Assembly: GCF_000012805.1 (NCBI RefSeq)
Contig: NC_007484.1
Span: forward strand, 570,001-602,000
Length of the DNA: 32,000 bases
Reading direction: 5' to 3'
Source of the DNA: Nitrosococcus oceani ATCC 19707
GTDB lineage: Bacteria; Pseudomonadota; Gammaproteobacteria; Nitrosococcales; Nitrosococcaceae
Every line of letters starts with the position of its first letter. Within the stretch, counting starts at the first letter, position 1. The notes below the pieces were generated by a model. It had not been told where the DNA came from and ran no database searches. It was given only the letters and a program-made list of their open reading frames with translations. This document shows positions 9,761 through 24,401 of the stretch, in pieces. A program made the position numbers and the translations under genes.

Positions 9761-10035
9761 AGAAAAGCACGGTTGGTTTCGCGCTGCCCTGCTCACCCGC
9801 AGGCGGGGGCAGCCGTCCCTGCAAGACGGACGGCCATTGGCGCTGTGCCCATGAAAAACACCATTATTTTGCGGGTGGGTTAGAAAAAGCCTCAAGCGGT
9901 GGGTGCCGTGCATCCGTAGAGAAGGCTGAAGTACGGCATTTCCCGTATTTCTGAGGAAAAATACGGGAAATGCCGTACTTTTATCCCTGATTCTGGGGGC
10001 TTCGTAGGTAAGTTCCTGCTTGTTTTGATAAAAAA
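9761..10035. repeat. Palindrome-rich GC-rich insertion-like segment bounded by imperfect direct repeats of about 19 bp
   Basis: Flanks TATTTTAGCAAAAATTTTG (9742-9760) and TATTTAGCATAAATTTTG (10036-10053) differ by one indel and one mismatch. The interior holds at least three palindromes: CCCGC/GCGGG near 9796, GCCGTCC..GGACGGC at 9813-9836, and a 20-bp stem at 9931-9978. Confidence 0.4.
9931..9982 (+). terminator. Perfect 20-bp-stem hairpin followed by TTTT (candidate intrinsic terminator of the ABC operon)
   Basis: GTACGGCATTTCCCGTATTT (9931-9950), 8-nt loop, AAATACGGGAAATGCCGTAC (9959-9978), then TTTTAT. There is no U-run on the opposite strand. Confidence 0.45.
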
Positions 10036-13318: not shown

Positions 13319-13344
13319 GGGCGGACACATAGGTCCGCCCCTAC
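13319..13344. repeat. REP-type palindrome with CTAC/GTAG tail, just downstream of the RAYT stop
   Basis: GGGCGGAC-acatag-GTCCGCCC followed by CTAC. An 8-bp perfect stem, and a near-identical copy of the unit inside the RAYT gene. Confidence 0.7.
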
Positions 13345-13365: not shown

Positions 13366-14031
13366 TTAGGCCGGGTTTACGAATAATTTGTCGGATTCCC
13401 ATTGGACTGGATTGTTGCGGATATAGTCGCGGATACGGTCCAATTCTGTTTCATTACGGACGATGCGTTCCCAATAATTACGCTGCCACAATTTGCCGGG
13501 AAATGATGGCCATCCATTTTGTTTGACGCCACGAATATATTCGTTGGTCGTCATGGTCTTGAACCATTGCACCACGCCATGTAGGGGCGAACCTACGTGT
13601 TCGCCCTTGTTGATTGTGGGTACGGCATCCGGGCGGACACACAGGTCAGGGCGGACACACAGGTCAGGGCGGACACACAGGTCAGGGCGGACACACAGGT
13701 CAGGGCGGACACACAGGTCAGGGCGGACACACAGGTCAGGGCGGACACACAGGTCCGCCCCTACGGCGTTTACCACAATGAAATGCACGTGGTTGGGCAT
13801 GCAAATGAATTCATCACATGCAATAGCCGGAAATTTGTTGGGTAATTCGGCGTACCATCGCAGGATCGTCAAACCAGCATCATTCAATTGCATTTCGCCG
13901 GCCACGATGTTGCCGAACAGGCACGCGCGGTTTTGGGTACAGACGGTCACGAAATACGCGCCTGCCTGATCGTAGTCGTATCCCTGTAACCGTATGGATC
14001 GGCGATGATGGATTTCCGGATTGTAGGTCAT
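13366..14031 (-). CDS. REP-associated tyrosine transposase (RAYT, IS200/IS605-like Y1 HUH family)
   Basis: MTYNPEIHHRRSIRLQGYDYDQAGAYFVTVCT, the HUH motif MPNHVHFIVV, and C-terminal WQRNYWERIVRNETELDRIRDYIRNNP. Start taken at ATG 14031; the track's longer ORF (to 14139) overlaps the helicase stop and looks like an extension. Confidence 0.8.
   Translation of the reverse strand: MTYNPEIHHRRSIRLQGYDYDQAGAYFVTVCTQNRACLFGNIVAGEMQLNDAGLTILRWYAELPNKFPAIACDEFICMPNHVHFIVVNAVGADLCVRPDLCVRPDLCVRPDLCVRPDLCVRPDLCVRPDLCVRPDAVPTINKGEHVGSPLHGVVQWFKTMTTNEYIRGVKQNGWPSFPGKLWQRNYWERIVRNETELDRIRDYIRNNPVQWESDKLFVNPA
13581..13606. repeat. Inverted-orientation REP-like palindrome inside the RAYT CDS
   Basis: GTAG-GGGCGAAC-ctacgt-GTTCGCCC. 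It encodes the GEHVGSPLH segment on the minus strand and forms a head-to-head pair with the palindrome at 13739-13764. Confidence 0.6.
13631..13764. repeat. Seven tandem 18-bp units (GGGCGGACACACAGGTCA); the last unit closes into a REP palindrome plus CTAC
   Basis: Units start at 13631, 13649, 13667, 13685, 13703, 13721 and 13739. Six are identical, and the seventh ends GTCC-GCCC-CTAC, completing GGGCGGAC/GTCCGCCC. They are in frame and translate as (DLCVRP)x7 within the RAYT. Confidence 0.95.
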
Positions 14032-14132
14032 CCCTTTGTCCCGTGTGGCAGATTGCCGGCAATGCCCCCAATGAAATTCCTGAACAGCCAGAAGAAATAC
14101 GCCCCCCCTGCCTGTAAGCCCCCGGCTTTTAT

Positions 14133-16865
14133 TTACCACCCTTGCCCCATGAGATTAACCAAATCCCGGCGGGCAAAAACCTTCGCGCAGTTGCGCCAGC
14201 TATCCTCGCCCGGCTCCAGGGTAGCATTGTAACGGAGGTCGAAACCAGTCGCCTGCCGGCGCGCCTCGATATAGCGATCCATTTCCTCCCCCAGCCGGGT
14301 GATATCCTCGATCCATTCGTCTTTAAGGGTATCAGGCAACGCGCCAAAGAGATCGTAGCGGTCGCGCATGCGCTCGGAAAGCCGTTCGTAAATCGTCTCA
14401 TCCACGGTGCCTTGATAAACCAGGTTCAGCATATCCACGTTCTCCCGGAGTTGGCCTAGCCGCTTGATACGACCGAGGCGCTGTTCCAATCGGGTGGGAT
14501 TCCACGGTAAATCCACATTGATAAGGGTGCCGAGCATCTGGAGATTGAGCCCTTCGCAGGCCGCATCGGTGGCTACCATCAGGCGGACTTCCCGCTCCGC
14601 CACCAGGCGTTTAAGGGGCTCGCGTTCCATCTGAACGGTCTCCCCCCCATGGTAGAGACGGCTTTTGCCCGCGCCGGCGTAAAGCCCGATCCGCTCCTGG
14701 GGGAAGAGATCCGCTAGCTTCCCGGCCACCCAGGCGGCCGTGTCGTAGTATTGGCTGAAAATGATGCAGCCATGATTCAGCCAGCCTTCGACGGTAAGAT
14801 AATGGCGGATGGCCTTGAGCTTGGGGTCCTCGGCCAGGGCACGCAGCGGTGCCGCCAGCACCTGGAGTTCATTGCGCTCGGCTTGGGTTTGCATTGTTAG
14901 ATCGCCTTCTTGCTCGTCCTGGGTTTCCTGTTCGGTCCGCCCGGCGAGCATACGCTCTGCGGTCGCCAGCCCCGCCACGCAACTGGAGCAAACACGCTGG
15001 CGCAGGAGGTTTTTCATAAACCCCATCCCCTGGCCCCGCTGCCCCAATACCCTGGAGAAAGCCTCCGCTCCTTTATAGGCCCTATCAAATGCCTCACCGG
15101 TGCGTAGGGCACGGTCCGCGAATAAAACCGAGAAGGCCGAAGGATCACGGCTCAGGCGCCGCTCGGGATGAACATTGACCCCAATCCGCGGCAGCAACGC
15201 CTTCGCCTCCAGGGTGCGGCGCTGGCGCAGGACCGTATGCCGGACGATGGGGTTATGGCGTTGGAAAAAATAAGTTCCTTCTCTTTCCTCGTGGAGGACA
15301 TCCTCCAAGTCTTCCCGGATATCCTTGGGCAGATTCACCACCGGTACGCGGGCCTCGTAGCGCTGGTCTGGCATGGCCAGTTCCAGGCGGATATCCCGGA
15401 GTAGCCGACGCAACGACCCTTCCGCCGAGGAGGAAACCGGTGGCAACGGCGAGCGCAGCAGCGCCCAGCCTTGCTCTTCATCGGTGACCCGCTCCTGCCC
15501 GGTGAGTACCGGCAGCACCCGATCTGGGTGGTGCCAGGGGCCCAGATCCTCCCCCAACACAAACCGGCCTTCCCCCTGATGAAGAATGCCCATGAGATCC
15601 CACAGATCCTCTGGCCGGGTTTGAATCGGGGTGGCGGTCCCCAGCAAGACATGCCGGGCCCGCCCGGCGGCGGCCCGCATAAATTTGAGCAGTTCATTGG
15701 GCGCGCCGGCGTTCTTGCCCAGCCCCTGCCGGGTCCGGGCCTTATGGGCTTCATCCAGCACCAGAAGTTCAAACGTCAGGTTGCCGAGGAATTCCCGCTC
15801 CTGGGTAGGTTGGGTTAACAGGCCGGTAGAAATAATGCCCATCCGAAAGGGGCAGCGCCCAATCTGCGCCGCCCCCTTGGGAGAAACGGGTCGAGCTTCC
15901 GGGTCCAGCCAGATCTTGCCCTGGGAGTCCCAGCGGCCACAGGGTAGGCCGAGTTTATCCATCACTTCCGTTTGCCACTGCTCAATCAGGGTGGCCGGGG
16001 CAAAAATTGCTACTAGTTTGCGCCCCTTGCCCGCCTGCTCGGCTAGCAAGCACAAGGCGACCGCCGCCGTTCCCAGGGACAGGGTTTTTCCCAGGCCCAC
16101 CTCATCCGCCAGCAGCAGGCGTACAGCGGGATAGGCCCGGTAGTGATTCAAGCACTCGGCGATAAACCCTTGCTGCCAGGGTTGCAGGGAAAATCCCTCC
16201 CGGTAGAGGGGCGACTCGGCCAGGGCCGCCGGGGCCATCTCTTCCGGGGTAACCCTATCGTCCAAGGGAATCTCAACCCGGCGGGCGTGCCGTCCCACCT
16301 CTTGAATCACCGCCTCCGGCAGGGGCTTGGCCGCTTGCCAGAGGTGGGCGAACTCCGCCTCGATCCAGGCAACGCCCTCCGGTGAATCGTCTTCCCAAAG
16401 GATTTCATAATGGGTTTGCCAGCCCTGGCGGGTCTCGTTCATGGAGCCGATAAAGCCCACCTTGCGGCCATCGGCCCGCTCGATTACCCCGGCCTTGCCG
16501 TGGAGGAACCCGCAGACGGTATTAGGCGCTACCCAGATCATCGGGCCACGGGCGGTCAGGAAAGCATGGAGCTGGCGGTAGCGATCCCGATTAAGCAGGG
16601 CGTCGGCCTCGACCGCCTGCTCGTGCCAGCGCCCCAGCAGCCGGATTTCCCGGACTTTCGCTACCCGCAGGTCCTCGGGGGAGAGATCCCCATTGCAAAC
16701 GATGCGAACCTCGGGAATCTCCCTCAGCCATTCCCCGGCGACCTCAAACAGTGAGCTGGTGAAATAGCCGGCAATGCGCCGGTAGGCCCGCGCTCCTTGT
16801 AAGTGCTCGGCCAGAAAACTCTGGTCCAGGCGGGTAGTCCGGGAAGAGAAGCGCCAGAGGGTCAC
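14133..16865 (-). CDS. PLD-family nuclease domain fused to an SNF2-family helicase
   Basis: N-terminal HKD-type motif FLHGKAGVIE...GFIGSMNET. SNF2 motifs: I LLADEVGLGKT, II LVLDEAHKAR, III LLGTATPIQTRPEDLW, V-VI MVATDAACEGLNLQ...WNPTRLEQRLGRIKRLGQ. The GTG start overlaps the methylase stop (GTGA, 16862-16865). Confidence 0.9.
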   Translation of the reverse strand: MTLWRFSSRTTRLDQSFLAEHLQGARAYRRIAGYFTSSLFEVAGEWLREIPEVRIVCNGDLSPEDLRVAKVREIRLLGRWHEQAVEADALLNRDRYRQLHAFLTARGPMIWVAPNTVCGFLHGKAGVIERADGRKVGFIGSMNETRQGWQTHYEILWEDDSPEGVAWIEAEFAHLWQAAKPLPEAVIQEVGRHARRVEIPLDDRVTPEEMAPAALAESPLYREGFSLQPWQQGFIAECLNHYRAYPAVRLLLADEVGLGKTLSLGTAAVALCLLAEQAGKGRKLVAIFAPATLIEQWQTEVMDKLGLPCGRWDSQGKIWLDPEARPVSPKGAAQIGRCPFRMGIISTGLLTQPTQEREFLGNLTFELLVLDEAHKARTRQGLGKNAGAPNELLKFMRAAAGRARHVLLGTATPIQTRPEDLWDLMGILHQGEGRFVLGEDLGPWHHPDRVLPVLTGQERVTDEEQGWALLRSPLPPVSSSAEGSLRRLLRDIRLELAMPDQRYEARVPVVNLPKDIREDLEDVLHEEREGTYFFQRHNPIVRHTVLRQRRTLEAKALLPRIGVNVHPERRLSRDPSAFSVLFADRALRTGEAFDRAYKGAEAFSRVLGQRGQGMGFMKNLLRQRVCSSCVAGLATAERMLAGRTEQETQDEQEGDLTMQTQAERNELQVLAAPLRALAEDPKLKAIRHYLTVEGWLNHGCIIFSQYYDTAAWVAGKLADLFPQERIGLYAGAGKSRLYHGGETVQMEREPLKRLVAEREVRLMVATDAACEGLNLQMLGTLINVDLPWNPTRLEQRLGRIKRLGQLRENVDMLNLVYQGTVDETIYERLSERMRDRYDLFGALPDTLKDEWIEDITRLGEEMDRYIEARRQATGFDLRYNATLEPGEDSWRNCAKVFARRDLVNLMGQGW

Positions 16866-19800
16866 AGGCGCTCGTTGCGCACCCGACTGGCGATGATCTC
16901 GGCGGCTCGTGCTTCCTGGGGACGCCGCTGGGCGAGCTGGTCACCGAGAAATTGCGCCATGGCCTGGAGGTGGGGGCGTTGCTGAAAATAATCCGGCAGG
17001 GCCTCCCGGAGATTGTCCATGACGATCGGTGGTTCCTTCTCCCCCAAAAGTTCCTGGAGCGCCACCAGCACCTGCCCCAGGAGAGTCTCGCCGATTTCGG
17101 TTCCGGCCAGCTCCCGGGGCTTGAAATCCTGGGCTCCTTTCAGCCGGGCTCTGTTGGGTTTTAGGCTTGCCATCACCGCTTGGTAGTTGTCCACCCGGAA
17201 GGTTTTGGCGAAGTTTTGATAATTATCCAGCTTGCTGGCTCCGGTGGTTTCCAGGGCCACCATCCGCAGGTAGAAGCGCTGGATGCCACTAATCACCTCC
17301 CAAGTCGCTTTGGGCAGGCCCTCAGGGACGAGGAGGCTGTTGGCGGTTGCCGCCGCTTGCTGAACCATCTCACTCACCACCGTTTTCTCCCCCTTCCGCC
17401 GGGGACGCAGCGCCAGGCGGGTGACTTCCTCGCCGTTGATTTCCGTGTAGCCGGTGAGGACCTTCAGGGCCGCCGCGTAGCCCGCCATCTGGAGATCGGA
17501 GTCGGTGAATACGGGCGCCCCCATCTGTTCCTGAGTCCGCGCGTTAAGATGCATCATGTCCTGGATTTGGGCGTTGACTTCCTTGCGCACCTGGGGCAGA
17601 AGACGGGGGGTAAAGCCCGCCCGCTGGCCGGGCGGCCGTTTCCCCAGGAGCAGAATCACGGTGCCCTGGACATAACCGCCCTTTTTCAACTCGGAGCTGG
17701 TTTCGGTGGCAATGTACCAGGCGTTGATGACCTGGAGACCCGCCGCCCAGAAGATAGCGGCCATATCGGACCACACCCGGCTGTCCTGATGGGTAAACAT
17801 GACGCATTGACGGCCGTTATCCGGCATGTGTTCGGTCATGGCTTGGTAAGCTTCCACCATATCGCGGCGGAACTTGTCGCTAGCGCCTTGAATGGCCAGC
17901 GCCCGGCGGGAGTCCCAGATCCATTCATTGAAGGGGGCGGGCGGGTTTTTCCGCAGCCAGGCAATAAAGAACTCAGTGATTTCGTGGTAGTGAACCGCAT
18001 CCCCGTAGGGCGGATCGGTGATCCACAGATCTGCCACCGCAGTAATTGAGCGGCAATCCAACATCTCAACATAATTGGATACGTCTAATGTTTGAGATCG
18101 CCTCATAGGCAAATCGTACGCCTGCATGTGCATGTCATACGCCCGAGTCCCATAATTATAAAAGGTATTTAATGCTTGATTGTAAAAGACTTGTTGTGAC
18201 TTAGCCCAATAAGGCTCCCACCGGCATAGCCGATTATTCCAGTCAGCCGCCTTTAAAAGACAAATCGCAGATACGGGGTGTCGATGCTTGCAGAAAAGCG
18301 AAGAAATAAGTAGCTGCCGTGCATTAAACAATTGATGCCAATACCGCCAGCCGCGCTCCCGTTGAAGCCTCGTGGTCTCTTTACCCGGTTCAATGGCCAT
18401 ATCGGGCACGAGTCCTTGCTCTTGCCAGGAGGCCAGATTTTCCGCCACGATCTGCTCCACTTGTCGCTCCCGCGCCCGATCTTCTTCGGTGACCGGGGCG
18501 AAATAGGTCTGCTGCCGGGATTTCCCCAGCGTTTCCTGGGTGATCCACTGAATGGAGTAAAGGCGCTCCTGAAAGACATCCTCCGGCTGGGGCCTGAAAT
18601 CGTGCTTCTCCCACTGCCGCAGGCGGTTGCGGTTAACGCCCTGGGCGTCTCGATAGTCGCCCCGCAGGGTTTTGATGGAGGTGCGGTAGGTTTTCCCTTC
18701 CAGCGTATACACCATCTGCCCCTGCTGGACCGTGCCTTGCTCAGCGGCTGCCATCTCCTCTGGGGAAGCGCCGCTGACAATGTCAATTTCAAAGCGTTTT
18801 TCCCGCGGATTTGGAATCAGCTTGGCATAAACCTGGCGGGTTTTAGAAATCACCCAACTGGGCGCTAGAGGCACCTGCCAGCCGGTTTCCGGGCAGCGAG
18901 TCTCCAGACAATACAAATAGGCTTTCGCTCGATCGCCTTGGCTGTTGTGCTCAATGCCGAGGGCGGTGATTTCCTGGTTCACCGCTGCGGCCACCGCTTG
19001 CTGGGCCTGGGCGATCTCATCTCGCCGCTCAGGGGAAGCGCCAATAATATTGAGCGCTCCCCAGGTGAGCATGCAGGCAATGGGGTTAAGATCCGAGGCA
19101 TACACCTCGCAGCCCAGGCGGGCGGCCTCGAAGGGAATGGAACCGCTGCCGCAGAAGGTGTCTCCCACCCGGGGCCGGTGCCCAAAGCGAAGCATACCCA
19201 ACTGGGCTACCAGCTCTTCGTGGCTATGGGCCTGGACGCCAAAGCGCCCCAGATGTTGATTGACGGAGTCCCAGATGGGGCCGTAGAGGGTTGCCGGATC
19301 GCACTCCTCCGGTCGCTTGCAAAGGGCCACTTTGTCCGGGTAGGGCAGCTCCTTTAGGGCCGCCGCCAGCAGTGTTTGCTTGTCCGCCAGGGGAATAGCC
19401 CGCTTCCAGCGCAGGGACAGCCCGGGGATGTCCCCGGCCCGGAGGGGAAAGGTCAGCTCCTCTATTTTCGTAGGCTCAACCGTCGCGTCCTTGAAACTAT
19501 AATCGAAATAATCCCAGGGACGGGGCAGCGTGATTCTTGCCGCCACCTGGGCCGCGCTTAGTTTTGGTTCCCGCCGCCCGAAGGACGCCTCATCCAGGGC
19601 CATCAATTGCTCGAAGATCGCTAAATCCGTTTCTGGATCATCCGTGGCGGGAAGTAACGAACCCAGAATAAGAGCCCGCACCAGGATGAGGGGCTTGCGG
19701 CCTTTCCAGTAGGAGCCCAGGGCGGTGAGGGTTTTCCCCGAACCGGCCTTTCTTTCCTTCTGGGCTTCGGCGGAAATCTTCTGGGCCGGGAAGACCCGCT

Positions 19801-19873
19801 CCAGGAGGGCGGGGGTATTCTTGAGCGGCGGTGCCTCAAGGCATAGCGTCTGCTCCTGTTGGGGGGCTAACAT
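16862..19873 (-). CDS. DUF1156-type DNA methyltransferase (amino-methyltransferase with DPPY motif)
   Basis: The N-terminus FPAQKISAEAQKERKAG...YWKGRKPLILVRALILGSLLP resembles the DUF1156 region. SAM-binding motif I DTFCGSGSIPFEAARLGCEVYASDLNP. Catalytic motif IV WITDPPYGDAV. 1003 aa, ATG at 19873 with GGAGA RBS. Confidence 0.9.
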   Translation of the reverse strand: MLAPQQEQTLCLEAPPLKNTPALLERVFPAQKISAEAQKERKAGSGKTLTALGSYWKGRKPLILVRALILGSLLPATDDPETDLAIFEQLMALDEASFGRREPKLSAAQVAARITLPRPWDYFDYSFKDATVEPTKIEELTFPLRAGDIPGLSLRWKRAIPLADKQTLLAAALKELPYPDKVALCKRPEECDPATLYGPIWDSVNQHLGRFGVQAHSHEELVAQLGMLRFGHRPRVGDTFCGSGSIPFEAARLGCEVYASDLNPIACMLTWGALNIIGASPERRDEIAQAQQAVAAAVNQEITALGIEHNSQGDRAKAYLYCLETRCPETGWQVPLAPSWVISKTRQVYAKLIPNPREKRFEIDIVSGASPEEMAAAEQGTVQQGQMVYTLEGKTYRTSIKTLRGDYRDAQGVNRNRLRQWEKHDFRPQPEDVFQERLYSIQWITQETLGKSRQQTYFAPVTEEDRARERQVEQIVAENLASWQEQGLVPDMAIEPGKETTRLQRERGWRYWHQLFNARQLLISSLFCKHRHPVSAICLLKAADWNNRLCRWEPYWAKSQQVFYNQALNTFYNYGTRAYDMHMQAYDLPMRRSQTLDVSNYVEMLDCRSITAVADLWITDPPYGDAVHYHEITEFFIAWLRKNPPAPFNEWIWDSRRALAIQGASDKFRRDMVEAYQAMTEHMPDNGRQCVMFTHQDSRVWSDMAAIFWAAGLQVINAWYIATETSSELKKGGYVQGTVILLLGKRPPGQRAGFTPRLLPQVRKEVNAQIQDMMHLNARTQEQMGAPVFTDSDLQMAGYAAALKVLTGYTEINGEEVTRLALRPRRKGEKTVVSEMVQQAAATANSLLVPEGLPKATWEVISGIQRFYLRMVALETTGASKLDNYQNFAKTFRVDNYQAVMASLKPNRARLKGAQDFKPRELAGTEIGETLLGQVLVALQELLGEKEPPIVMDNLREALPDYFQQRPHLQAMAQFLGDQLAQRRPQEARAAEIIASRVRNERL

Positions 19874-19896
19874 AGCTATCGTTTCTCCAAAAAAAT

Positions 19897-20511
19897 TTAG
19901 TCAAACAAATCGGGGGTTTTCGTGTTCTTGTCCGCGGCTTTGGGTGTGCCGGTGGGGAGCAAAGTGGCCTGGGGAAGGTCGGCAAGGGCGTAGCGCAAGG
20001 CCCGACGCCAGCCTCTCCTGCTATCCTGGAGGCCGCCCGTGGCTATGGCGGTCATCCCGAACAGCCACCAGCGTTCCTCGGGCCGGAGCGCCAGCCAGTT
20101 GCGAACAGCCAGACCGGTTTGCTCGGGACTTGCCTCCTCGATGGCCCAGGCCAGTACGCACAGCTCCTTGCCAAGCAAGCGATCCACCGGATTCTCGCCC
20201 ATCTTCCACCGACCGGGTGCGAGCTTTTGCCGCCTTAGCCGGTGGTTGAAGGCACGCTTGACCTCGTTGGCGATGGCCGTCCAGCGGCGGCGTTCCAGGC
20301 ACACCCGATCAAGTACGGCGCTGTCTTCTCGCCCGGCTTGTATGCCCAGGCACTCGCGGATGAGCACCGGCTGTTTGGTGCCCCGGGGGATGGTGACCTG
20401 ATAATGATGGGGGTCCAGGGTGGTGGGCACCCCGAATCCCAGGGTCCGGTGGGCATAACGGCGAGGGGATTGGCGGCTCATGGGCGGGATCTTTTGGGCA
20501 GTAGTTTTCAT
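19897..20511 (-). CDS. Small conserved-position protein (DUF3780-like by gene context; function unknown)
   Basis: ATG at 20511 overlaps the upstream stop (ATGA, 20508-20511). About 204 aa with no catalytic motif I can recognise. It occupies the slot where DUF3780 proteins sit in DUF1156/DUF499 clusters as I remember them. Confidence 0.5.
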   Translation of the reverse strand: MKTTAQKIPPMSRQSPRRYAHRTLGFGVPTTLDPHHYQVTIPRGTKQPVLIRECLGIQAGREDSAVLDRVCLERRRWTAIANEVKRAFNHRLRRQKLAPGRWKMGENPVDRLLGKELCVLAWAIEEASPEQTGLAVRNWLALRPEERWWLFGMTAIATGGLQDSRRGWRRALRYALADLPQATLLPTGTPKAADKNTKTPDLFD

Positions 20512-21963
20512 TGGAGCACCACCTCCGGGCTTAGCTTCAATTGGCAAAGCTCGGCAAAGCGCTTGAGCTCGTAACCGTTGCGGAAGTGGCCTCCTTCCCG
20601 GATGGTGATCTGCACCGATGCCTGGTCATCGCCAATGGCCTGGCGCAGGGCGCGGACGGACTGTTCGATGACCGCCGCGGTCACCGGGCGGGCGTTGAAT
20701 TTTAGGATCACGGCTTCCTCGTTCTCGCCGATAATAACCTGGACCCCCTTGAACTGGGTAGTGTCATCCTCCCGGAAAGCTTGGATGAGGTTAAAAGTCT
20801 TTTCAGTGGTATCGATGGTGAGCCGCGGAATGCGAAGATAGGCAGGCTGCCCATCATTAATCTGCGGCTGGTTATTACCTAGCGCCGAAAGTTTAATAGT
20901 TTCCTGGGCTTCGGCCTCACCGGCGCGGGCATAAACTTGCAATATCGCCCCTTCCGGCGGCGCCGGGAAAAGCCCTTCGTAAAGCTGGCCTTTCTTGGGG
21001 TTGGCCCCATTGAGGGTAAAGCGGAGGATGGCGGCCGTGGGAACCACTCGCAGTTCTACCTTGCAGCCTTCGGCGGTGGTTCGAACTTGGTGCCGAATCA
21101 CCAGCCGGTTGTTCCAGCGTACGGGCTCGCCGGTTGAGTGCTCGCCTGCGGGGTCCACCGCCAGAAAGTAAAGGGTGGCTTCCTGGGTGCGGAAGTTATC
21201 CAAATCAGAGACCACCGGGTCCTCCATGGAGATCTGGGCCTGGGGGCTGTAGTGAACCTGGGGATTAGATCCCGCATGGCGGGGTGTGAGGGTCAAAGTG
21301 GCCTCGCCTGTGTCTCGATCCGTGCCCTGTACCGTGATGTTGACTGTGGTTTTTTCCTTGGGGAAGGGGCCTTTCTCCAGGTAGCCGTCCGTCCCTTCCC
21401 GCCAGCGGCCTTGCTCCAGGGCCAGGGATTTAAGGGTATCGAGTCCCTTGAGGCCCGGCATCCAGGGCCAAGCGGGATTGGTTTTGGCCCGCAGCAACAC
21501 ATCCGCCAGGGTGCCGCCGCCCACCGGCACAGTGTGGGCCATATGCAGATAAGGGGGCAGTTCATCTAGCATGATGAGGGTGGGATCATCGCCAATGAGG
21601 GATTTCCAGTCGGATTCGGCTACCGCTTTGGGACCATTGATCCAGAATTTCTTCTTCCGGCACAATCTCCTGGCGCCGCGCCGGATGTTTAGCTAGCAGT
21701 CCGAGGGCGATCATCAGGTGGGTTTTACCCCCGCCCATGGCCTGGGCCAGCTCGAAGACCGCTTAATCGGATTTTCCCCCCAACCGCAGCAGTCCCTCTC
21801 GAAAGAGGCCATTCATGCCCCGGGTGATATGGTTTTTTTCAAAGAAGGCGGCCCCATCGCCTTCATCGCCGATAAGATCGGCCAAATTCTCAATGGCGTC
21901 GGTCATGGTGTAGTCGAGTGCCAAGGGGTGAAGCTGGCAGGCGTCGCGGATGGTTTTTAGCAT
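20508..21963 (-). pseudogene. DUF499-type P-loop ATPase gene, disrupted (in-frame TAA plus frameshift; shorter than expected)
   Basis: ATG 21963 gives MLKTIRDACQLHP...FFEKNHITRGMNGLFREGLLRLGGKSD, then TAA (21763-21765). The same frame continues AVFELAQAMGGGKTHLMIALGLL (Walker A) and stops at 21587-21589. The Walker-B-like TLIMLDELPPYL and the remaining 385 aa are in another frame that is open only from 21692 downward. Confidence 0.6.
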
Positions 21964-22100
21964 GGGTTTTCCCTGATAAGCACTTTTCTGCAAATTGATA
22001 CACTGTGTGCTATATCGGCGGGAGGCGGGCGGCTATGAGCGTGCGGTGAACTGAGCCTATAGTGGTTTCCCTTTAGCTAGCATCTGAACAAGGCCATGGC

Positions 22101-24401
22101 TCACCACTTATTATTTTTCCGATAAGCACCGCTTTCAATCCAGTCTGCAAGGATTTTAAGCTGCGCGGCGTTAAGGCAGGCTTGCTTGGGTGCTACGGTG
22201 CCGTAGTCGATATCGTCGGTGCGGCTGGCATCGGTGCGTCCATCCAAACGTTCTCCAGCGCTGCGCCAGTACAGGAGACTCTCGCGGGCAAACAACCAGT
22301 TGATAAAGTAGCTCCGCCACGGTGGCTTTGCGGCCCCTTTGGCGTAATGGGTAAAGTTATTAAAAGCTTTTTCCTCGGTGGAGGCTGAAAGGTTAAACTC
22401 GGGAAAGTTTTCATCGCAATTGTCACGCAACAGGGGCCAGACATCCGTGGTCCAATTCAACAGCGTTCCGCTTGCGGGGACTGGGGTGGGGGCCACTTTG
22501 GCCGCCTCTGAGTCCTTGAACTGAGGGGGGTTGTCGTCGTCGTGGTTGTGGCACCCCGAGCAGGTACGGGTTTCACCGGGCCGCAGAGACATGGCGATCT
22601 TGTCTCTGGCGAGCGTTCTGCCTTCGCTATCGACTCCAGCCATATAGAACGGGGTATCGCAAGGCACTTCAGCGGTAAATGAACCATCAGACCGTAATGG
22701 AACCGTGCCGAGCACTTCCATCCTGAATGGACCAAATCCATCAAAATCCTGATGCAAAACCCGTGAATTGAACGGAACGGGCCGCCAGAACTTGATGCTT
22801 GTCATGAGCGCTTGCTTATCCACGCCCGCCATGGAACAGCCTTGTTCATAACACGGATTAGCGTTGCCGGGGCCGCGATAGCCCTGTTCATTGTCTACTT
22901 GCATCCGCTTGCTAGCCGAGCGCAGGATGCATTTGCCGTCCGGGTTGGGATGGTCCATCTTTACCACTGGCGGCTTCTTAATGCCGTAAATATCCTCGTA
23001 GGGCATCACGGGCTGAGGTTGGAACTCGTGCCAGTCGGGGCTATTGACGATAAGGATACGGCTTTCCAGGCTTTTCTCTGGCACGGTGCCTTGTACATAG
23101 ATACCGAAATCACAGCCGCTATCATTGAGCGGTAGCTGGGCAATTTTATGGAAGAAATGGCACACGCCTTTTGGGCTGGCGGAAAACACCAGCCCCCCTT
23201 TAGGCATCCCCATGGGATCGCGGGTGCGCCCCAGCCCATCGGTTTTGAACTGATCGCCGGAATGCCCCCACAACCCTAAATATCTTCCCTCTTTGGCCTT
23301 GAAAGGGAATTTGCCCTCGGGATGATTCGGGGTGGGATAGGTAAAGCACTGAATGTTACCGCCGCCTTTATTATTTTGGCGATAATAGTTCGTCGTACAC
23401 ACGTCCCCATTGCTACGCACGCCCGTAAAATGAAGGGCTTTAATGGTGATATTGTCTGGGTTAGGGAGAAACCGCGCATGGGCGCCCCAGATAGCATTAT
23501 GCTCCGAACCATCTTGCCGGGTTTCGGCGATATACCACAGATTATCCAGGGTTTTGTTCTGAACGCTTTCCAAGTCCCGCTTCCAGCTTGAAAAAAGCAC
23601 CTTACCAGAAGGATGAAGGATGGGATGGAGCGCATCGGCGAGAATGTCCGGACTGACGTTACGGGCGTGGCTGCCATTTCTGTCCGCCACCCACAACTGC
23701 AAGACTTCCCCTTCCGGGCTAAAGCCGCTGATGCTTCCTGCTTTGATATGGTCCCGGTTGGAGGTAAACATCAGGGTGCCATCGGGCAACCATTGTGGGG
23801 CCATATCAAATACCCCTTGCACGGCTGCCCATTGGGTCTTTTCCATCGTTTCGAGATTGACGAAATGAAGGGAGGACTTCTGCGCATCAATCCCATGCTG
23901 CATTTTCACATCAGGGTTGGTCCCATACCGACCCTCCAGCACCGTATAGGCCACTTGCTTGCCGTCGAAGCTCACTCGCGGGTCAATCACAATACATGTG
24001 TTCTCACCTAGCGCGACTTCCGGGCAATGGTGGAGGATAACTTCCGTGCCATCGCCCTTCCGCCAGACCAAATCGCCGGGGCCGGTCAAAAAGTCCCCGG
24101 TTGTGCCTTGAAAGGTGACATCAATCAGCCGGTCGGTAGCAGAAATAGAGTGATAGGTTTTCCCCTTGACGACAAAATTCCCCGTCGTGCGCTTCACTCT
24201 CGCGTACACAAAGCCGTCAATGGCGGCGGCGAGGTGCTCCTCGGCTTCCAGTGCGCTTGAGCGCGCCTTGAGGTCCAGGCTTTTGGACTCTTGCGCCGAA
24301 ATTTGGCTTTCAATGGATGTCAATTTCGTCGGTTCAGTCACGGTGACTTCGGCCATGGCGGGAAACGCAACAATGGCAAGTAAACAGAATGTTTTTTTCA
24401 T
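22101..24401 (-). CDS. Secreted TolB/PD40-like beta-propeller protein with a single c-type haem motif (CSGCH)
   Basis: Signal peptide MKKTFCLLAIVAFPAMA. PD40-like repeats (PRVSFDGKQVAYTV, PQWLPDGTLMFTSNRD, LHPSGKVLFSSW). RPGETRTCSGCHNHDDD with the CXXCH codons at 22548-22562. About 145 aa of C-terminal tail of unknown fold. Confidence 0.75.
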   Translation of the reverse strand: MKKTFCLLAIVAFPAMAEVTVTEPTKLTSIESQISAQESKSLDLKARSSALEAEEHLAAAIDGFVYARVKRTTGNFVVKGKTYHSISATDRLIDVTFQGTTGDFLTGPGDLVWRKGDGTEVILHHCPEVALGENTCIVIDPRVSFDGKQVAYTVLEGRYGTNPDVKMQHGIDAQKSSLHFVNLETMEKTQWAAVQGVFDMAPQWLPDGTLMFTSNRDHIKAGSISGFSPEGEVLQLWVADRNGSHARNVSPDILADALHPILHPSGKVLFSSWKRDLESVQNKTLDNLWYIAETRQDGSEHNAIWGAHARFLPNPDNITIKALHFTGVRSNGDVCTTNYYRQNNKGGGNIQCFTYPTPNHPEGKFPFKAKEGRYLGLWGHSGDQFKTDGLGRTRDPMGMPKGGLVFSASPKGVCHFFHKIAQLPLNDSGCDFGIYVQGTVPEKSLESRILIVNSPDWHEFQPQPVMPYEDIYGIKKPPVVKMDHPNPDGKCILRSASKRMQVDNEQGYRGPGNANPCYEQGCSMAGVDKQALMTSIKFWRPVPFNSRVLHQDFDGFGPFRMEVLGTVPLRSDGSFTAEVPCDTPFYMAGVDSEGRTLARDKIAMSLRPGETRTCSGCHNHDDDNPPQFKDSEAAKVAPTPVPASGTLLNWTTDVWPLLRDNCDENFPEFNLSASTEEKAFNNFTHYAKGAAKPPWRSYFINWLFARESLLYWRSAGERLDGRTDASRTDDIDYGTVAPKQACLNAAQLKILADWIESGAYRKNNKW

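What the first reader, a model, noticed from the sequence alone, without database searches (positions are those of the whole stretch)
14133..21963. Four-gene ATPase / small protein / DUF1156 methylase / PLD-SNF2 helicase operon: a restriction-modification-like defence module with no established mechanism
Seen in the sequence: four minus-strand genes are packed with 4-nt start/stop overlaps (ATGA at 20508-20511, GTGA at 16862-16865) and one 23-nt gap containing a GGAGA RBS, which implies translational coupling and fixed stoichiometry. The motifs define (1) a P-loop ATPase (GGGKTH, hhhhDEL), (2) a protein of about 204 aa with no recognisable motif, (3) a 1003-aa methyltransferase with FCGSGS and DPPY motifs and a DUF1156-like N-terminus, and (4) an HKD (PLD) nuclease domain fused to a complete SNF2 helicase. 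This pairs a modification enzyme with an ATP-driven translocase/nuclease. It does not match other classes: there is no HsdS/HsdR of type I, no Res of type III, no PglZ/BrxL of BREX, and no DUF1998 protein of DISARM. From memory, comparative surveys of defence islands have noted co-occurrence of DUF1156 methylases, DUF499 ATPases, DUF3780 proteins and helicases, and I believe PADLOC lists a helicase-methylase-ATPase type called Hma. I know of no biochemical mechanism or recognition motif for it. The block looks more GC-rich than its neighbours and sits next to a RAYT and near a tRNA gene, which is consistent with horizontal acquisition.
Basis: partly seen in the sequence, partly recalled or inferred. 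Interest (0 to 1): 0.8.

Follow-up and report, generated by a model that had tools for sequence, protein, structure and literature searches.

The report
Decayed BREX-related defence operon, swapped methylase
This block of the Nitrosococcus oceani chromosome is a copy of an already catalogued four-gene anti-phage system, but its ATPase gene is a wreck, while its DNA methylase has exchanged a hypervariable, probably sequence-reading, segment between two strains of the species.

Summary
The gene block exists as described: the junctions, motifs and domains check out. It is not an unclassified system. All four products match dedicated NCBIfam equivalogs (NF042961-64, "anti-phage-associated"), and PADLOC has a model for each. 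A 2026 NAR survey calls this architecture the "Type-2 BREX-related (BR) system" and counts it in 1120 taxa. RefSeq already names the N. oceani proteins this way. No biochemistry or solved structure was found for the type.

It has a TAA at codon 67, a 116-bp frameshifting deletion and a 1521-bp deletion removing residues 195-701. About 480 of 1032 codons remain, and Walker A and Walker B lie in different frames. The wreck is identical in independent assemblies. Strain AFC132 shares the stop and the large deletion but keeps the 116 bp, so decay was stepwise. N. wardiae has an intact operon. A Candidatus Nitrosoglobus genome shows a separate decay.

The two N. oceani strains differ by 0-0.4% around the locus but by 4-31% inside the methylase gene. 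Residues 523-618, just before DPPY, are about 19% identical. This segment is also the most variable part of the whole system in 55 complete operons. The kind is known. This copy is degenerate, and it offers a natural allele pair for mapping specificity.

The parts
20508..21963 (-). DUF499 AAA+ ATPase pseudogene (remnant of a ~1032-aa gene)
   Evidence: NCBIfam NF042962 matches profile positions 1-64 and 699-1025 only, at 426 bits against a cut-off of 1200. tblastn with the intact N. wardiae protein maps aa 1-103, 143-194 and 702-1032. The sequence is identical in GCA_000155655.1 and in Logan assemblies.
21763..21765 (-). Premature TAA at codon 67 of DUF499 (Gln in relatives)
   Evidence: Read directly. 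N. wardiae and Ca. Nitrosoglobus have Q here. The stop is shared by strain AFC132, where a 66-aa ORF is called.
21718..21735 (-). Walker A (GGGKTH) coding remnant, downstream of the stop codon
21654..21655 (-). Site of the 116-bp frameshifting deletion (removes aa 104-142), specific to the ATCC 19707-type lineage
   Evidence: AFC132 (L086) keeps the 116 bp. The junction has GAA microhomology.
21558..21575 (-). Walker B (IMLDEL) coding remnant, in a different frame from Walker A
21498..21503 (-). Junction (GATGTG) of the in-frame 1521-bp deletion removing aa 195-701
   Evidence: The tblastn segments abut and overlap here. In N. wardiae the two sides carry TTGGCAGATGTG and TGGCGGGATGTG. The deletion is shared by AFC132.
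19897..20511 (-). DUF3780 protein gene (204 aa), intact
   Evidence: Pfam PF12635 274 bits; NF042961 269 bits against a cut-off of 200. AF2 model pLDDT 75.8 with no PDB fold match. Identical between the two strains.
16862..19873 (-). DUF1156 N6-adenine-type DNA methyltransferase gene (1003 aa), intact
   Evidence: NF042963 1368 bits against a cut-off of 1000. FCGSG at aa 240-244 and DPPY at aa 620-623.
18020..18307 (-). Hypervariable cassette of the methylase (aa 523-618), the probable target-recognition determinant
   Evidence: About 19% identity between the two N. oceani alleles. It is the most variable segment across 80 homologues and across 55 complete operons. It is uncoupled from the backbone phylogeny.
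19424..19525 (-). Second variable patch of the methylase (aa 117-150)
   Evidence: Entropy 2.5, mean pairwise identity 31%. It differs between the two strains.
16830..19538 (-). Recombination tract that distinguishes ATCC 19707-type strains from AFC132
   Evidence: 4-31% divergence per 500 bp inside the tract against 0-0.4% outside it over 13 kb. dS is 0.13-0.38 and dN/dS 0.11-0.30 in the alignable parts.
14133..16865 (-). HKD (PLD-type) nuclease fused to an SNF2 helicase, gene intact (910 aa)
   Evidence: NF042964 1166 bits against a cut-off of 1100, matched end to end. H122-x-K124 ... GSMN143, GLGKT 257-261 and DEAH 371-374 all sit at columns conserved in at least 90% of 66 homologues.
21964..22100 (-). 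Upstream intergenic region of the operon
   Evidence: One promoter-like site lies a little upstream, at 22138-22110 inside the end of the neighbouring gene (10 of 12 matches). The scan as a whole is not above chance.

Best explanation
This is a decaying copy of the known four-gene DUF499 / DUF3780 / DUF1156-methylase / HKD-SNF2 defence system in Nitrosococcus oceani. The system is the Type-2 BREX-related system, covered by NCBIfam NF042961-64.

Inferred mode of action of the intact system:
- The DUF1156 enzyme is an N6-adenine methyltransferase that marks host DNA at a motif. The motif is read by a hypervariable cassette lying between its AdoMet motif and its DPPY motif.
- The DUF499 STAND-type AAA+ ATPase, with DUF3780, assembles or licenses the complex on DNA.
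- The SNF2 motor translocates. Its single HKD domain would have to pair with a second HKD domain to cut unmarked DNA.
- The only hypervariable element in the whole system is in the methylase. The methylase is therefore probably the sole sequence reader for both modification and restriction, as PglX is in BREX.

In this genome (the lesions are shown; their consequence is inferred):
- The ATPase gene was destroyed stepwise. A stop at codon 67 and a 1521-bp deletion came first, and a 116-bp deletion followed in the ATCC 19707 lineage.
- The ATPase-dependent restriction arm is therefore most likely off.
- The methylase, DUF3780 and helicase-nuclease genes remain intact.
- After the ATPase had died, one strain lineage replaced most of its methylase gene, including the cassette, by recombination with a related allele. 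That exchange is tolerable when restriction no longer polices self-methylation.
- I expect the methylase to persist as a solitary methylase with different motifs in the two lineages.
For: Identity. Three proteins pass the curated equivalog cut-offs end to end, and PADLOC's dedicated models score 1257, 1354 and 236 bits. The order DUF499 -> DUF3780 -> MTase -> helicase is kept in every one of 80 genome loci with enough flank, and 54 of 58 evaluable loci have all four genes intact.

Pseudogene.. The same sequence appears in the independent assemblies L081-L085. AFC132 shares the stop and the large deletion but keeps the 116 bp.

The remaining genes look sound. Catalytic motifs sit on family-conserved columns. 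The helicase shows no excess of deviations at conserved columns compared with intact N. wardiae, 25 against 26.

Cassette.
- The two alleles are 95% identical in the core and 19% identical over aa 523-618.
- Divergence is 4-31% inside the tract against 0-0.4% outside it.
- dS is raised as well (0.13-0.38), so the tract was imported rather than selected in place.
- Family-wide, the four most variable 30-aa windows of all four proteins are in the methylase. No window of the other three proteins falls below 52% mean identity or co-varies with the cassette (partial r <= 0.06).
- 34 pairs of homologues have >= 85% core identity and <= 45% cassette identity.

Horizontal origin. The GC excess, and three different insertion sites in N. 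oceani, N. wardiae and Ca. Nitrosoglobus.
Against: - No experiment on any Type-2 BR system was found, so every mechanistic step is inferred from domains and from BREX and Hma analogies.
- The related HmaA helicase-nuclease protects E. coli from T4 on its own when expressed from a plasmid. Loss of the ATPase therefore need not abolish all activity.
- That the remaining 6.3 kb is intact says little. The two strains differ by only about 0.1-0.2% here, so at most about one disrupting mutation would be expected under neutrality (my estimate).
- That the cassette reads DNA sequence is inferred from its position and variability, not shown. It could instead be a surface under selection from phage inhibitors.
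- The N. oceani methylase has somewhat more lineage-specific changes at conserved columns than N. wardiae (12 against 5), which could mean its constraint is already relaxed.
Confidence: 0.62

Rival explanations
1. The ATPase-less trio (DUF3780 + methylase + HKD-SNF2) is still a working restriction-modification-like defence. The methylase swap between strains then reflects active switching of specificity.
For: All three ORFs are intact, with catalytic motifs on conserved columns. The helicase shows no excess of deviations against intact N. wardiae. HmaA of the sister system defends alone in E. coli. The recombination tract is nearly coextensive with the methylase gene.
Against: DUF499 is intact in 54 of the 58 evaluable loci and broken in only 3, and it is the defining core of all BR systems in the survey. 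If restriction were still live, changing methylase specificity alone should expose unmodified self sites. The time since the ATPase was inactivated is too short for ORF intactness to prove selection.
Confidence: 0.2
2. The whole locus is inert. After the ATPase was lost, none of the remaining genes does anything useful, and they are intact only because the inactivation is recent. The methylase tract is one of many neutral recombination imports in strain AFC132.
For: AFC132 has only 98.28% ANI to the other strains, so imported tracts are probably common in it. The methylase shows slightly more changes at conserved columns than its relatives. In Ca. Nitrosoglobus the methylase has also acquired a stop codon after DUF499 was lost, which shows where such loci end up.
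Against: Both methylase alleles are full-length, with all motifs. The tract boundaries bracket the methylase closely and include the one segment that is hypervariable family-wide.
Confidence: 0.15
3. An intact, translationally coupled four-gene operon with a functional P-loop ATPase.
For: GGGKTH and DEL motifs are present in the DNA.
Against: There is an in-frame TAA upstream of Walker A. Walker A and Walker B are in different frames. 546 of 1032 codons are missing. NF042962 scores 426 bits against a cut-off of 1200. The sequence is reproduced in independent assemblies.
Confidence: 0.01

Closest known systems
Type-2 BREX-related (BR) system of Rakesh & Krishnan, NAR 2026 (PMC12839542), equal to the NCBIfam 'anti-phage-associated' set NF042961-NF042964 and PADLOC models PDLC02189-02193
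   Same: The same four families in the same order: DUF499 ATPase, standalone DUF3780, DUF1156 N6-methylase, and an N-terminal HKD fused to a Swi2/Snf2 helicase.
   Different: In this copy the DUF499 gene is a pseudogene missing residues 104-142 and 195-701 and carrying a stop at codon 67. Many homologous loci have embedded cassettes between the genes, but this one has none.
Hma (HmaA helicase-nuclease, HmaB methylase, HmaC DUF499 ATPase; PADLOC 2021), called the Type-1 BR system in the 2026 survey
   Same: The same ATPase + methylase + SNF2 helicase-nuclease logic. HmaB is annotated as a DUF1156 protein and HmaC as a DUF499 ATPase. Defence genes are embedded between the core genes.
   Different: HmaA carries a C-terminal PD-(D/E)xK nuclease, not an N-terminal HKD. 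Hma has no DUF3780 gene. The Hma models match only partially here: 118, 73 and 156 bits.
BREX, especially type 3 (BrxC ATPase, PglXI methylase, BrxHII helicase, PglZ)
   Same: A large AAA+ ATPase, a large N6-adenine methylase with an internal recognition insert, and an SNF2 helicase. The specificity is apparently carried by the methylase alone (the BREX analogy is and general knowledge of PglX).
   Different: There is no PglZ, BrxA, BrxB or BrxL in the block. The effector is a canonical nuclease domain (HKD). The PglXI model hits weakly (21 bits), the BrxHI/HII models reach 84-101 bits, and no BrxC model matched the intact relative.
DISARM (DrmA/B/C/D/E + DrmMI/MII)
   Same: An SNF2 helicase related to DrmD (180 bits), a PLD-type nuclease domain, and an associated methylase.
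   Different: DrmD scores 180 bits against a cut-off of 610. There is no DrmA or DrmB (DUF1998) gene, and the PLD domain is fused to the helicase rather than being a separate DrmC.

Membership tests
Type-2 BR system / NCBIfam NF042961-64 four-gene anti-phage set | Full-length DUF499 AAA+ ATPase | tested here: not met
   NF042962 scores 426 bits against a cut-off of 1200. Only profile positions 1-64 and 699-1025 match, and the gene has a stop, a frameshift and a 1521-bp deletion. It qualifies as a remnant of a member, not as a working component.
Type-2 BR system / NCBIfam NF042961-64 four-gene anti-phage set | Standalone DUF3780 gene inside the locus | tested here: met
   NF042961 269 bits (cut-off 200); PF12635 274 bits.
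Type-2 BR system / NCBIfam NF042961-64 four-gene anti-phage set | DUF1156-type N6 methyltransferase | tested here: met
   NF042963 1368 bits (cut-off 1000), matching profile positions 1-960 of 960. FxGxG and DPPY are present.
Type-2 BR system / NCBIfam NF042961-64 four-gene anti-phage set | N-terminal HKD nuclease fused to a Swi2/Snf2 helicase | tested here: met
   NF042964 1166 bits (cut-off 1100), matching positions 1-895 of 895. PLDc_2, SNF2-rel_dom and Helicase_C are all found.
Type-2 BR system / NCBIfam NF042961-64 four-gene anti-phage set | Conserved co-linear gene order across genomes | tested here: met
   The same order is found in all 80 related loci wherever the contig reaches far enough, and 54 loci have all four genes intact.
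Type-2 BR system / NCBIfam NF042961-64 four-gene anti-phage set | Protection against phage or plasmids; a methylation motif | not testable with these tools
   No experimental paper on this type was found in the held library, and no N. oceani methylome paper.
Hma (PADLOC) / Type-1 BR | HmaA: SNF2 helicase with a C-terminal PD-(D/E)xK nuclease | tested here: not met
   The HmaA model scores 118 bits on the helicase C-lobe only, and the nuclease here is an N-terminal HKD.
Hma (PADLOC) / Type-1 BR | Three-gene core without DUF3780 | tested here: not met
   A DUF3780 gene is present between the ATPase remnant and the methylase.
BREX | PglZ phosphatase plus BrxA/BrxB/BrxL-type partners | tested here: not met
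   The block has only the four ORFs, and none hits a PglZ, BrxL or BrxA/B model.
DISARM | DrmA helicase and DrmB (DUF1998), with DrmD above threshold | tested here: not met
   DrmD scores 180 bits against a cut-off of 610, and no DUF1998 ORF is present.
Type I / Type III restriction-modification | HsdS/HsdR or Res subunit | tested here: not met
   No such ORF is present. Pfam ResIII scores 22.4 bits, just under its cut-off of 22.5, and that hit is explained by the SNF2 core.

The most novel reading that the evidence does not exclude
The methylase survives the death of its ATPase as an active enzyme, possibly together with the HKD-SNF2 protein and DUF3780 as a minimal ATPase-independent module. 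The cassette swap between ATCC 19707-type strains and AFC132 would then be a real change of DNA specificity. The two natural alleles are 95% identical outside a roughly 96-residue cassette. They would give the first direct handle on how DUF1156 methylases read their target. They would also show that the methylase is the only sequence reader of this defence type.
Probability: 0.2. Interest if true: 0.55.

Novelty: already known. Interest (0 to 1): 0.3.

Why it matters
The system type is catalogued but uncharacterised. No solved structure matches the methylase, DUF499 or DUF3780, and no recognition motif or tested mechanism was found. This window adds no new kind of system. It does offer three practical leads:

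- **A natural ATPase knockout.** An intact close relative exists in N. wardiae, so the question of whether DUF499 is needed for methylation, for restriction or for both can be tested.
- **A natural allele pair.** The two methylases differ almost only in one cassette, so methylome data from two existing culture-collection strains could assign the specificity determinant.
- **A single hypervariable element.** Across 55 operons it sits in the methylase, which argues for recognition centred on the methylase, as in BREX.

The window is also a warning for automated defence-system counts. Three of the four proteins pass their family thresholds here although the system is broken.

Tried and rejected
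- **DUF3780 fold.** The AlphaFold2 model built from 48 homologues has pLDDT 75.8. Foldseek against the PDB gave nothing (best E 0.53, TM 0.23), and the sequence search of the PDB gave nothing. No function can be proposed from the fold.
- **PDB sequence searches.** The methylase and an intact DUF499 gave no hits. The helicase hits only generic SNF2 proteins such as RapA and INO80.
- **Promoter and terminator scan of 13.2-22.3 kb.** Counts are no higher than in shuffles, so nothing can be said about expression.
- **Test for relaxed selection.** Deviations at columns conserved in at least 95% of homologues number 25 against 26 for the helicase (N. oceani against N. wardiae) and 26 against 18 for the methylase. 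This is inconclusive.
- **Co-variation of the methylase cassette with any window of DUF499, DUF3780 or the helicase.** None was found. This rejects the idea of a second, matched specificity module in the restriction components.
- **Assembly artefact as the cause of the broken ATPase.** Rejected. The sequence is 100% identical in the NCBI assembly and in three Logan assemblies, and a fourth (L084) differs at two positions.
- **In-place positive selection as the cause of methylase divergence.** Rejected, because synonymous divergence is raised as well.
- **Literature.** Makarova et al. 2011 (defence islands), which I recall as the origin of the association, is not held. No N. oceani methylome paper was found.
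- **Filing under Hma, BREX, DISARM or type I/III RM.** Rejected; see the membership tests.

Full report
**Observation**

The minus strand between 14133 and 21963 carries three long ORFs and a stretch with DUF499 similarity:
- 14133-16865, 910 aa.
- 16862-19873, 1003 aa.
- 19897-20511, 204 aa from the ATG.
- 20508-21963, the DUF499-like stretch.

The block has 59-64% G+C, against about 44-55% on either side and 50.3% for the genome. A RAYT-type transposase gene abuts the helicase stop. tRNA-Ser(cga) lies 3 kb beyond the other end, separated by a 766-aa gene.

**What the genes are**

- The 910-aa protein has a PLDc_2 (HKD) domain followed by an SNF2 helicase core and Helicase_C.
- The 1003-aa protein has a DUF1156 N-terminus, FCGSG at residue 240 and DPPY at residue 620.

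NCBIfam holds four consecutive equivalog models, NF042961 to NF042964. They are named anti-phage-associated DUF3780, DUF499 and DUF1156 proteins and phospholipase D-like anti-phage protein. Three of the window's proteins pass the curated cut-offs over the whole model length. PADLOC-DB likewise has a dedicated model for each protein (PDLC02189-02193).

The window is from Nitrosococcus oceani (Noc_0545 to Noc_0547), and RefSeq already uses these family names for the proteins. A 2026 comparative-genomics paper defines this architecture as the Type-2 BREX-related (BR) system and reports it in 1120 taxa. It treats PADLOC's Hma as the sister Type-1 (PMC12839542). The kind is therefore known.

**The ATPase gene is a wreck**

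- Reading from the ATG at 21963, the frame ends at a TAA at 21765-21763 (codon 67), ten codons before GGGKTH.
- Mapped against the intact 1032-aa protein of Nitrosococcus wardiae (84-96% identical to the surviving pieces), the window keeps residues 1-103, 143-194 and 702-1032.
- A 116-bp deletion removes residues 104-142 and shifts the frame, so Walker A and Walker B are in different frames.
- A 1521-bp in-frame deletion removes residues 195-701.
- The junction of the large deletion is GATGTG. In N. wardiae the two sides carry the near-repeats TTGGCAGATGTG and TGGCGGGATGTG. The small deletion has GAA microhomology.

This is not an assembly error. The NCBI assembly GCA_000155655.1 and three independent Logan assemblies are 100% identical over the region, and a fourth differs at two positions.

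Strain AFC132 (JPFN) has the same stop and the same large deletion but still has the 116 bp. The decay was therefore stepwise, and its first steps predate the split of the strains.

**How unusual the decay is**

Among 80 related loci from other species, the order DUF499, DUF3780, methylase, helicase is kept wherever the contig reaches. 54 of 58 fully evaluable loci have all four genes intact, 3 have a broken DUF499 and 1 has a broken methylase.

- N. wardiae carries an intact operon at a different site, among mobile-element genes.
- A Candidatus Nitrosoglobus genome carries a third insertion, next to prfC. There DUF499 is reduced to residues 1-96 plus the last 26, and the methylase has an in-frame stop.
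- A related metagenomic contig (JGI; organism not given) has an intact version, also next to prfC.

The system is therefore mobile in this clade and has decayed at least twice, and DUF499 was hit both times.

**The remaining genes**

In the helicase, the HKD signature (H122-x-K124 ... GSMN), GLGKT and DEAH all sit on columns conserved in at least 90% of 66 homologues. In the methylase, the FxGxG and DPPY motifs are likewise conserved among 80 homologues. A count of deviations at columns conserved in at least 95% of homologues gives 25 for the N. oceani helicase against 26 for N. wardiae, and 26 against 18 for the methylase. There is no clear sign of relaxed constraint. The two strains differ by only about 0.1-0.2% here, though, so intact ORFs prove little.

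**The methylase allele swap**

Window and AFC132 differ by 0-0.4% per 500 bp over 13 kb, except between 19538 and 16830. There, divergence is 4-31%. The tract runs from methylase codon 112 to helicase codon 12. In the alignable parts dS is 0.13-0.38 and dN/dS is 0.11-0.30, so the tract is an imported allele that had evolved under purifying selection, not change selected in place.

At the protein level the two alleles are 95% identical in the core. Over residues 523-618, directly upstream of DPPY, they are about 19% identical, and a second patch at residues 117-145 also differs.

The same segments are the most variable in the family. In 34 pairs of homologues with at least 85% core identity the cassette is at most 45% identical. 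Across 55 complete operons, the four most variable 30-residue windows of all four proteins lie in the methylase, with mean pairwise identities of 24, 31, 41 and 45%. No window of DUF499, DUF3780 or the helicase falls below 52%, and none co-varies with the cassette.

The cassette lies inside the insert that the 2026 survey calls the target-recognition domain. I read it as the specificity determinant. Because it is the only hypervariable element, I read the methylase as the only sequence reader of the system.

**Mechanism**

The domain content, gene order, pseudogene lesions, allele swap and variability pattern are shown. The rest is inferred:
- The intact system works like a restriction-modification system in which the methylase marks self DNA.
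- The DUF499 STAND-type ATPase, with DUF3780, assembles or licenses the complex.
- The SNF2 motor brings the HKD nuclease to unmarked DNA. An HKD active site needs two HKD domains, and the protein has one, so cutting should need dimerisation or the meeting of two complexes. This rests on general knowledge of PLD-family nucleases.

In N. oceani the ATPase is gone, so I consider restriction most likely off. The methylase swap came after the shared ATPase lesions. That order fits, because changing specificity is safe once self DNA is no longer policed.

The main rival is that the trio still defends. It is kept alive by the report that the related HmaA protects E. coli from T4 on its own (PMC11232893).

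**Dead ends**

DUF3780 gave a moderately confident model with no structural neighbour in the PDB. No solved structure matches the methylase or DUF499 by sequence. The promoter scan was uninformative. No methylome of N. oceani was found in the library.

**Verdict**

This copy is a degenerate member. The added value is the anatomy of the decay and a natural methylase allele pair that makes the specificity question testable with existing strains.

Noticed in passing
window 13366-14139 (-), array 13631-13755, hairpins 13319-13340 and 13739-13760: The RAYT (REP-associated tyrosine transposase) gene next to the operon has an in-frame 18-bp x 6.9 tandem array (DLCVRP repeated) between its HUH motif and its catalytic Tyr region. 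The unit is half of a perfect hairpin, GGGCGGAC-N6-GTCCGCCC, which also lies just downstream of the gene's stop. That placement suggests it is the gene's own REP element. The array breaks the AFC132 and Logan assemblies at this point.
   Followed up: partly
L041 8256-9983; L024 13047-16663; L032 5876-9944; L008 6536-8218; L016 7289-7903; L034 13411-16099: In homologous operons of other species, extra genes sit between DUF3780 and the methylase (46 loci) and between the methylase and the helicase (25 loci). Examples are DarT + macro-domain DarG, a Gabija-like AAA_15/TOPRIM + UvrD pair, Schlafen/AlbA_2 proteins, Uma2, and a ParA-like ATPase with an unknown partner. This matches the 'embedded defence' pattern described for Hma. 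The N. oceani copy has none.
   Followed up: partly
L089 9638-16381 (Candidatus Nitrosoglobus MAG JBRDZU010000026) and L090: This is an independent decay of the same system at a different chromosomal site, next to prfC. DUF499 is reduced to aa 1-96 plus the last 26 residues, and the methylase has an in-frame stop (DNGL*CVMF), while DUF3780 and the helicase are intact. A related metagenomic contig (JGI; organism not given) has the intact version, also next to prfC.
   Followed up: partly
window 22101-24401 (-): A 766-aa secreted-looking protein has a hydrazine-synthase alpha middle domain (PF18582, E 1.5e-12), a weak PD40 (beta-propeller) repeat hit and a CSGCH haem-binding-type motif, in an aerobic ammonia oxidiser. 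It separates the operon from tRNA-Ser.
   Followed up: no
window about 9931-9978: A perfect 20-bp inverted repeat (GTACGGCATTTCCCGTATTT ... AAATACGGGAAATGCCGTAC) lies upstream of the TonB-dependent receptor gene. The AFC27 assembly has a run of N exactly here.
   Followed up: no
L088 1-20639 (N. wardiae CP038033, 897-918 kb): The intact N. wardiae operon lies among AlpA-like, TrfA-like and DUF5681 genes and is followed by a NERD/UvrD-like gene. This looks like a mobile element or defence island unrelated to the N. oceani site.
   Followed up: no
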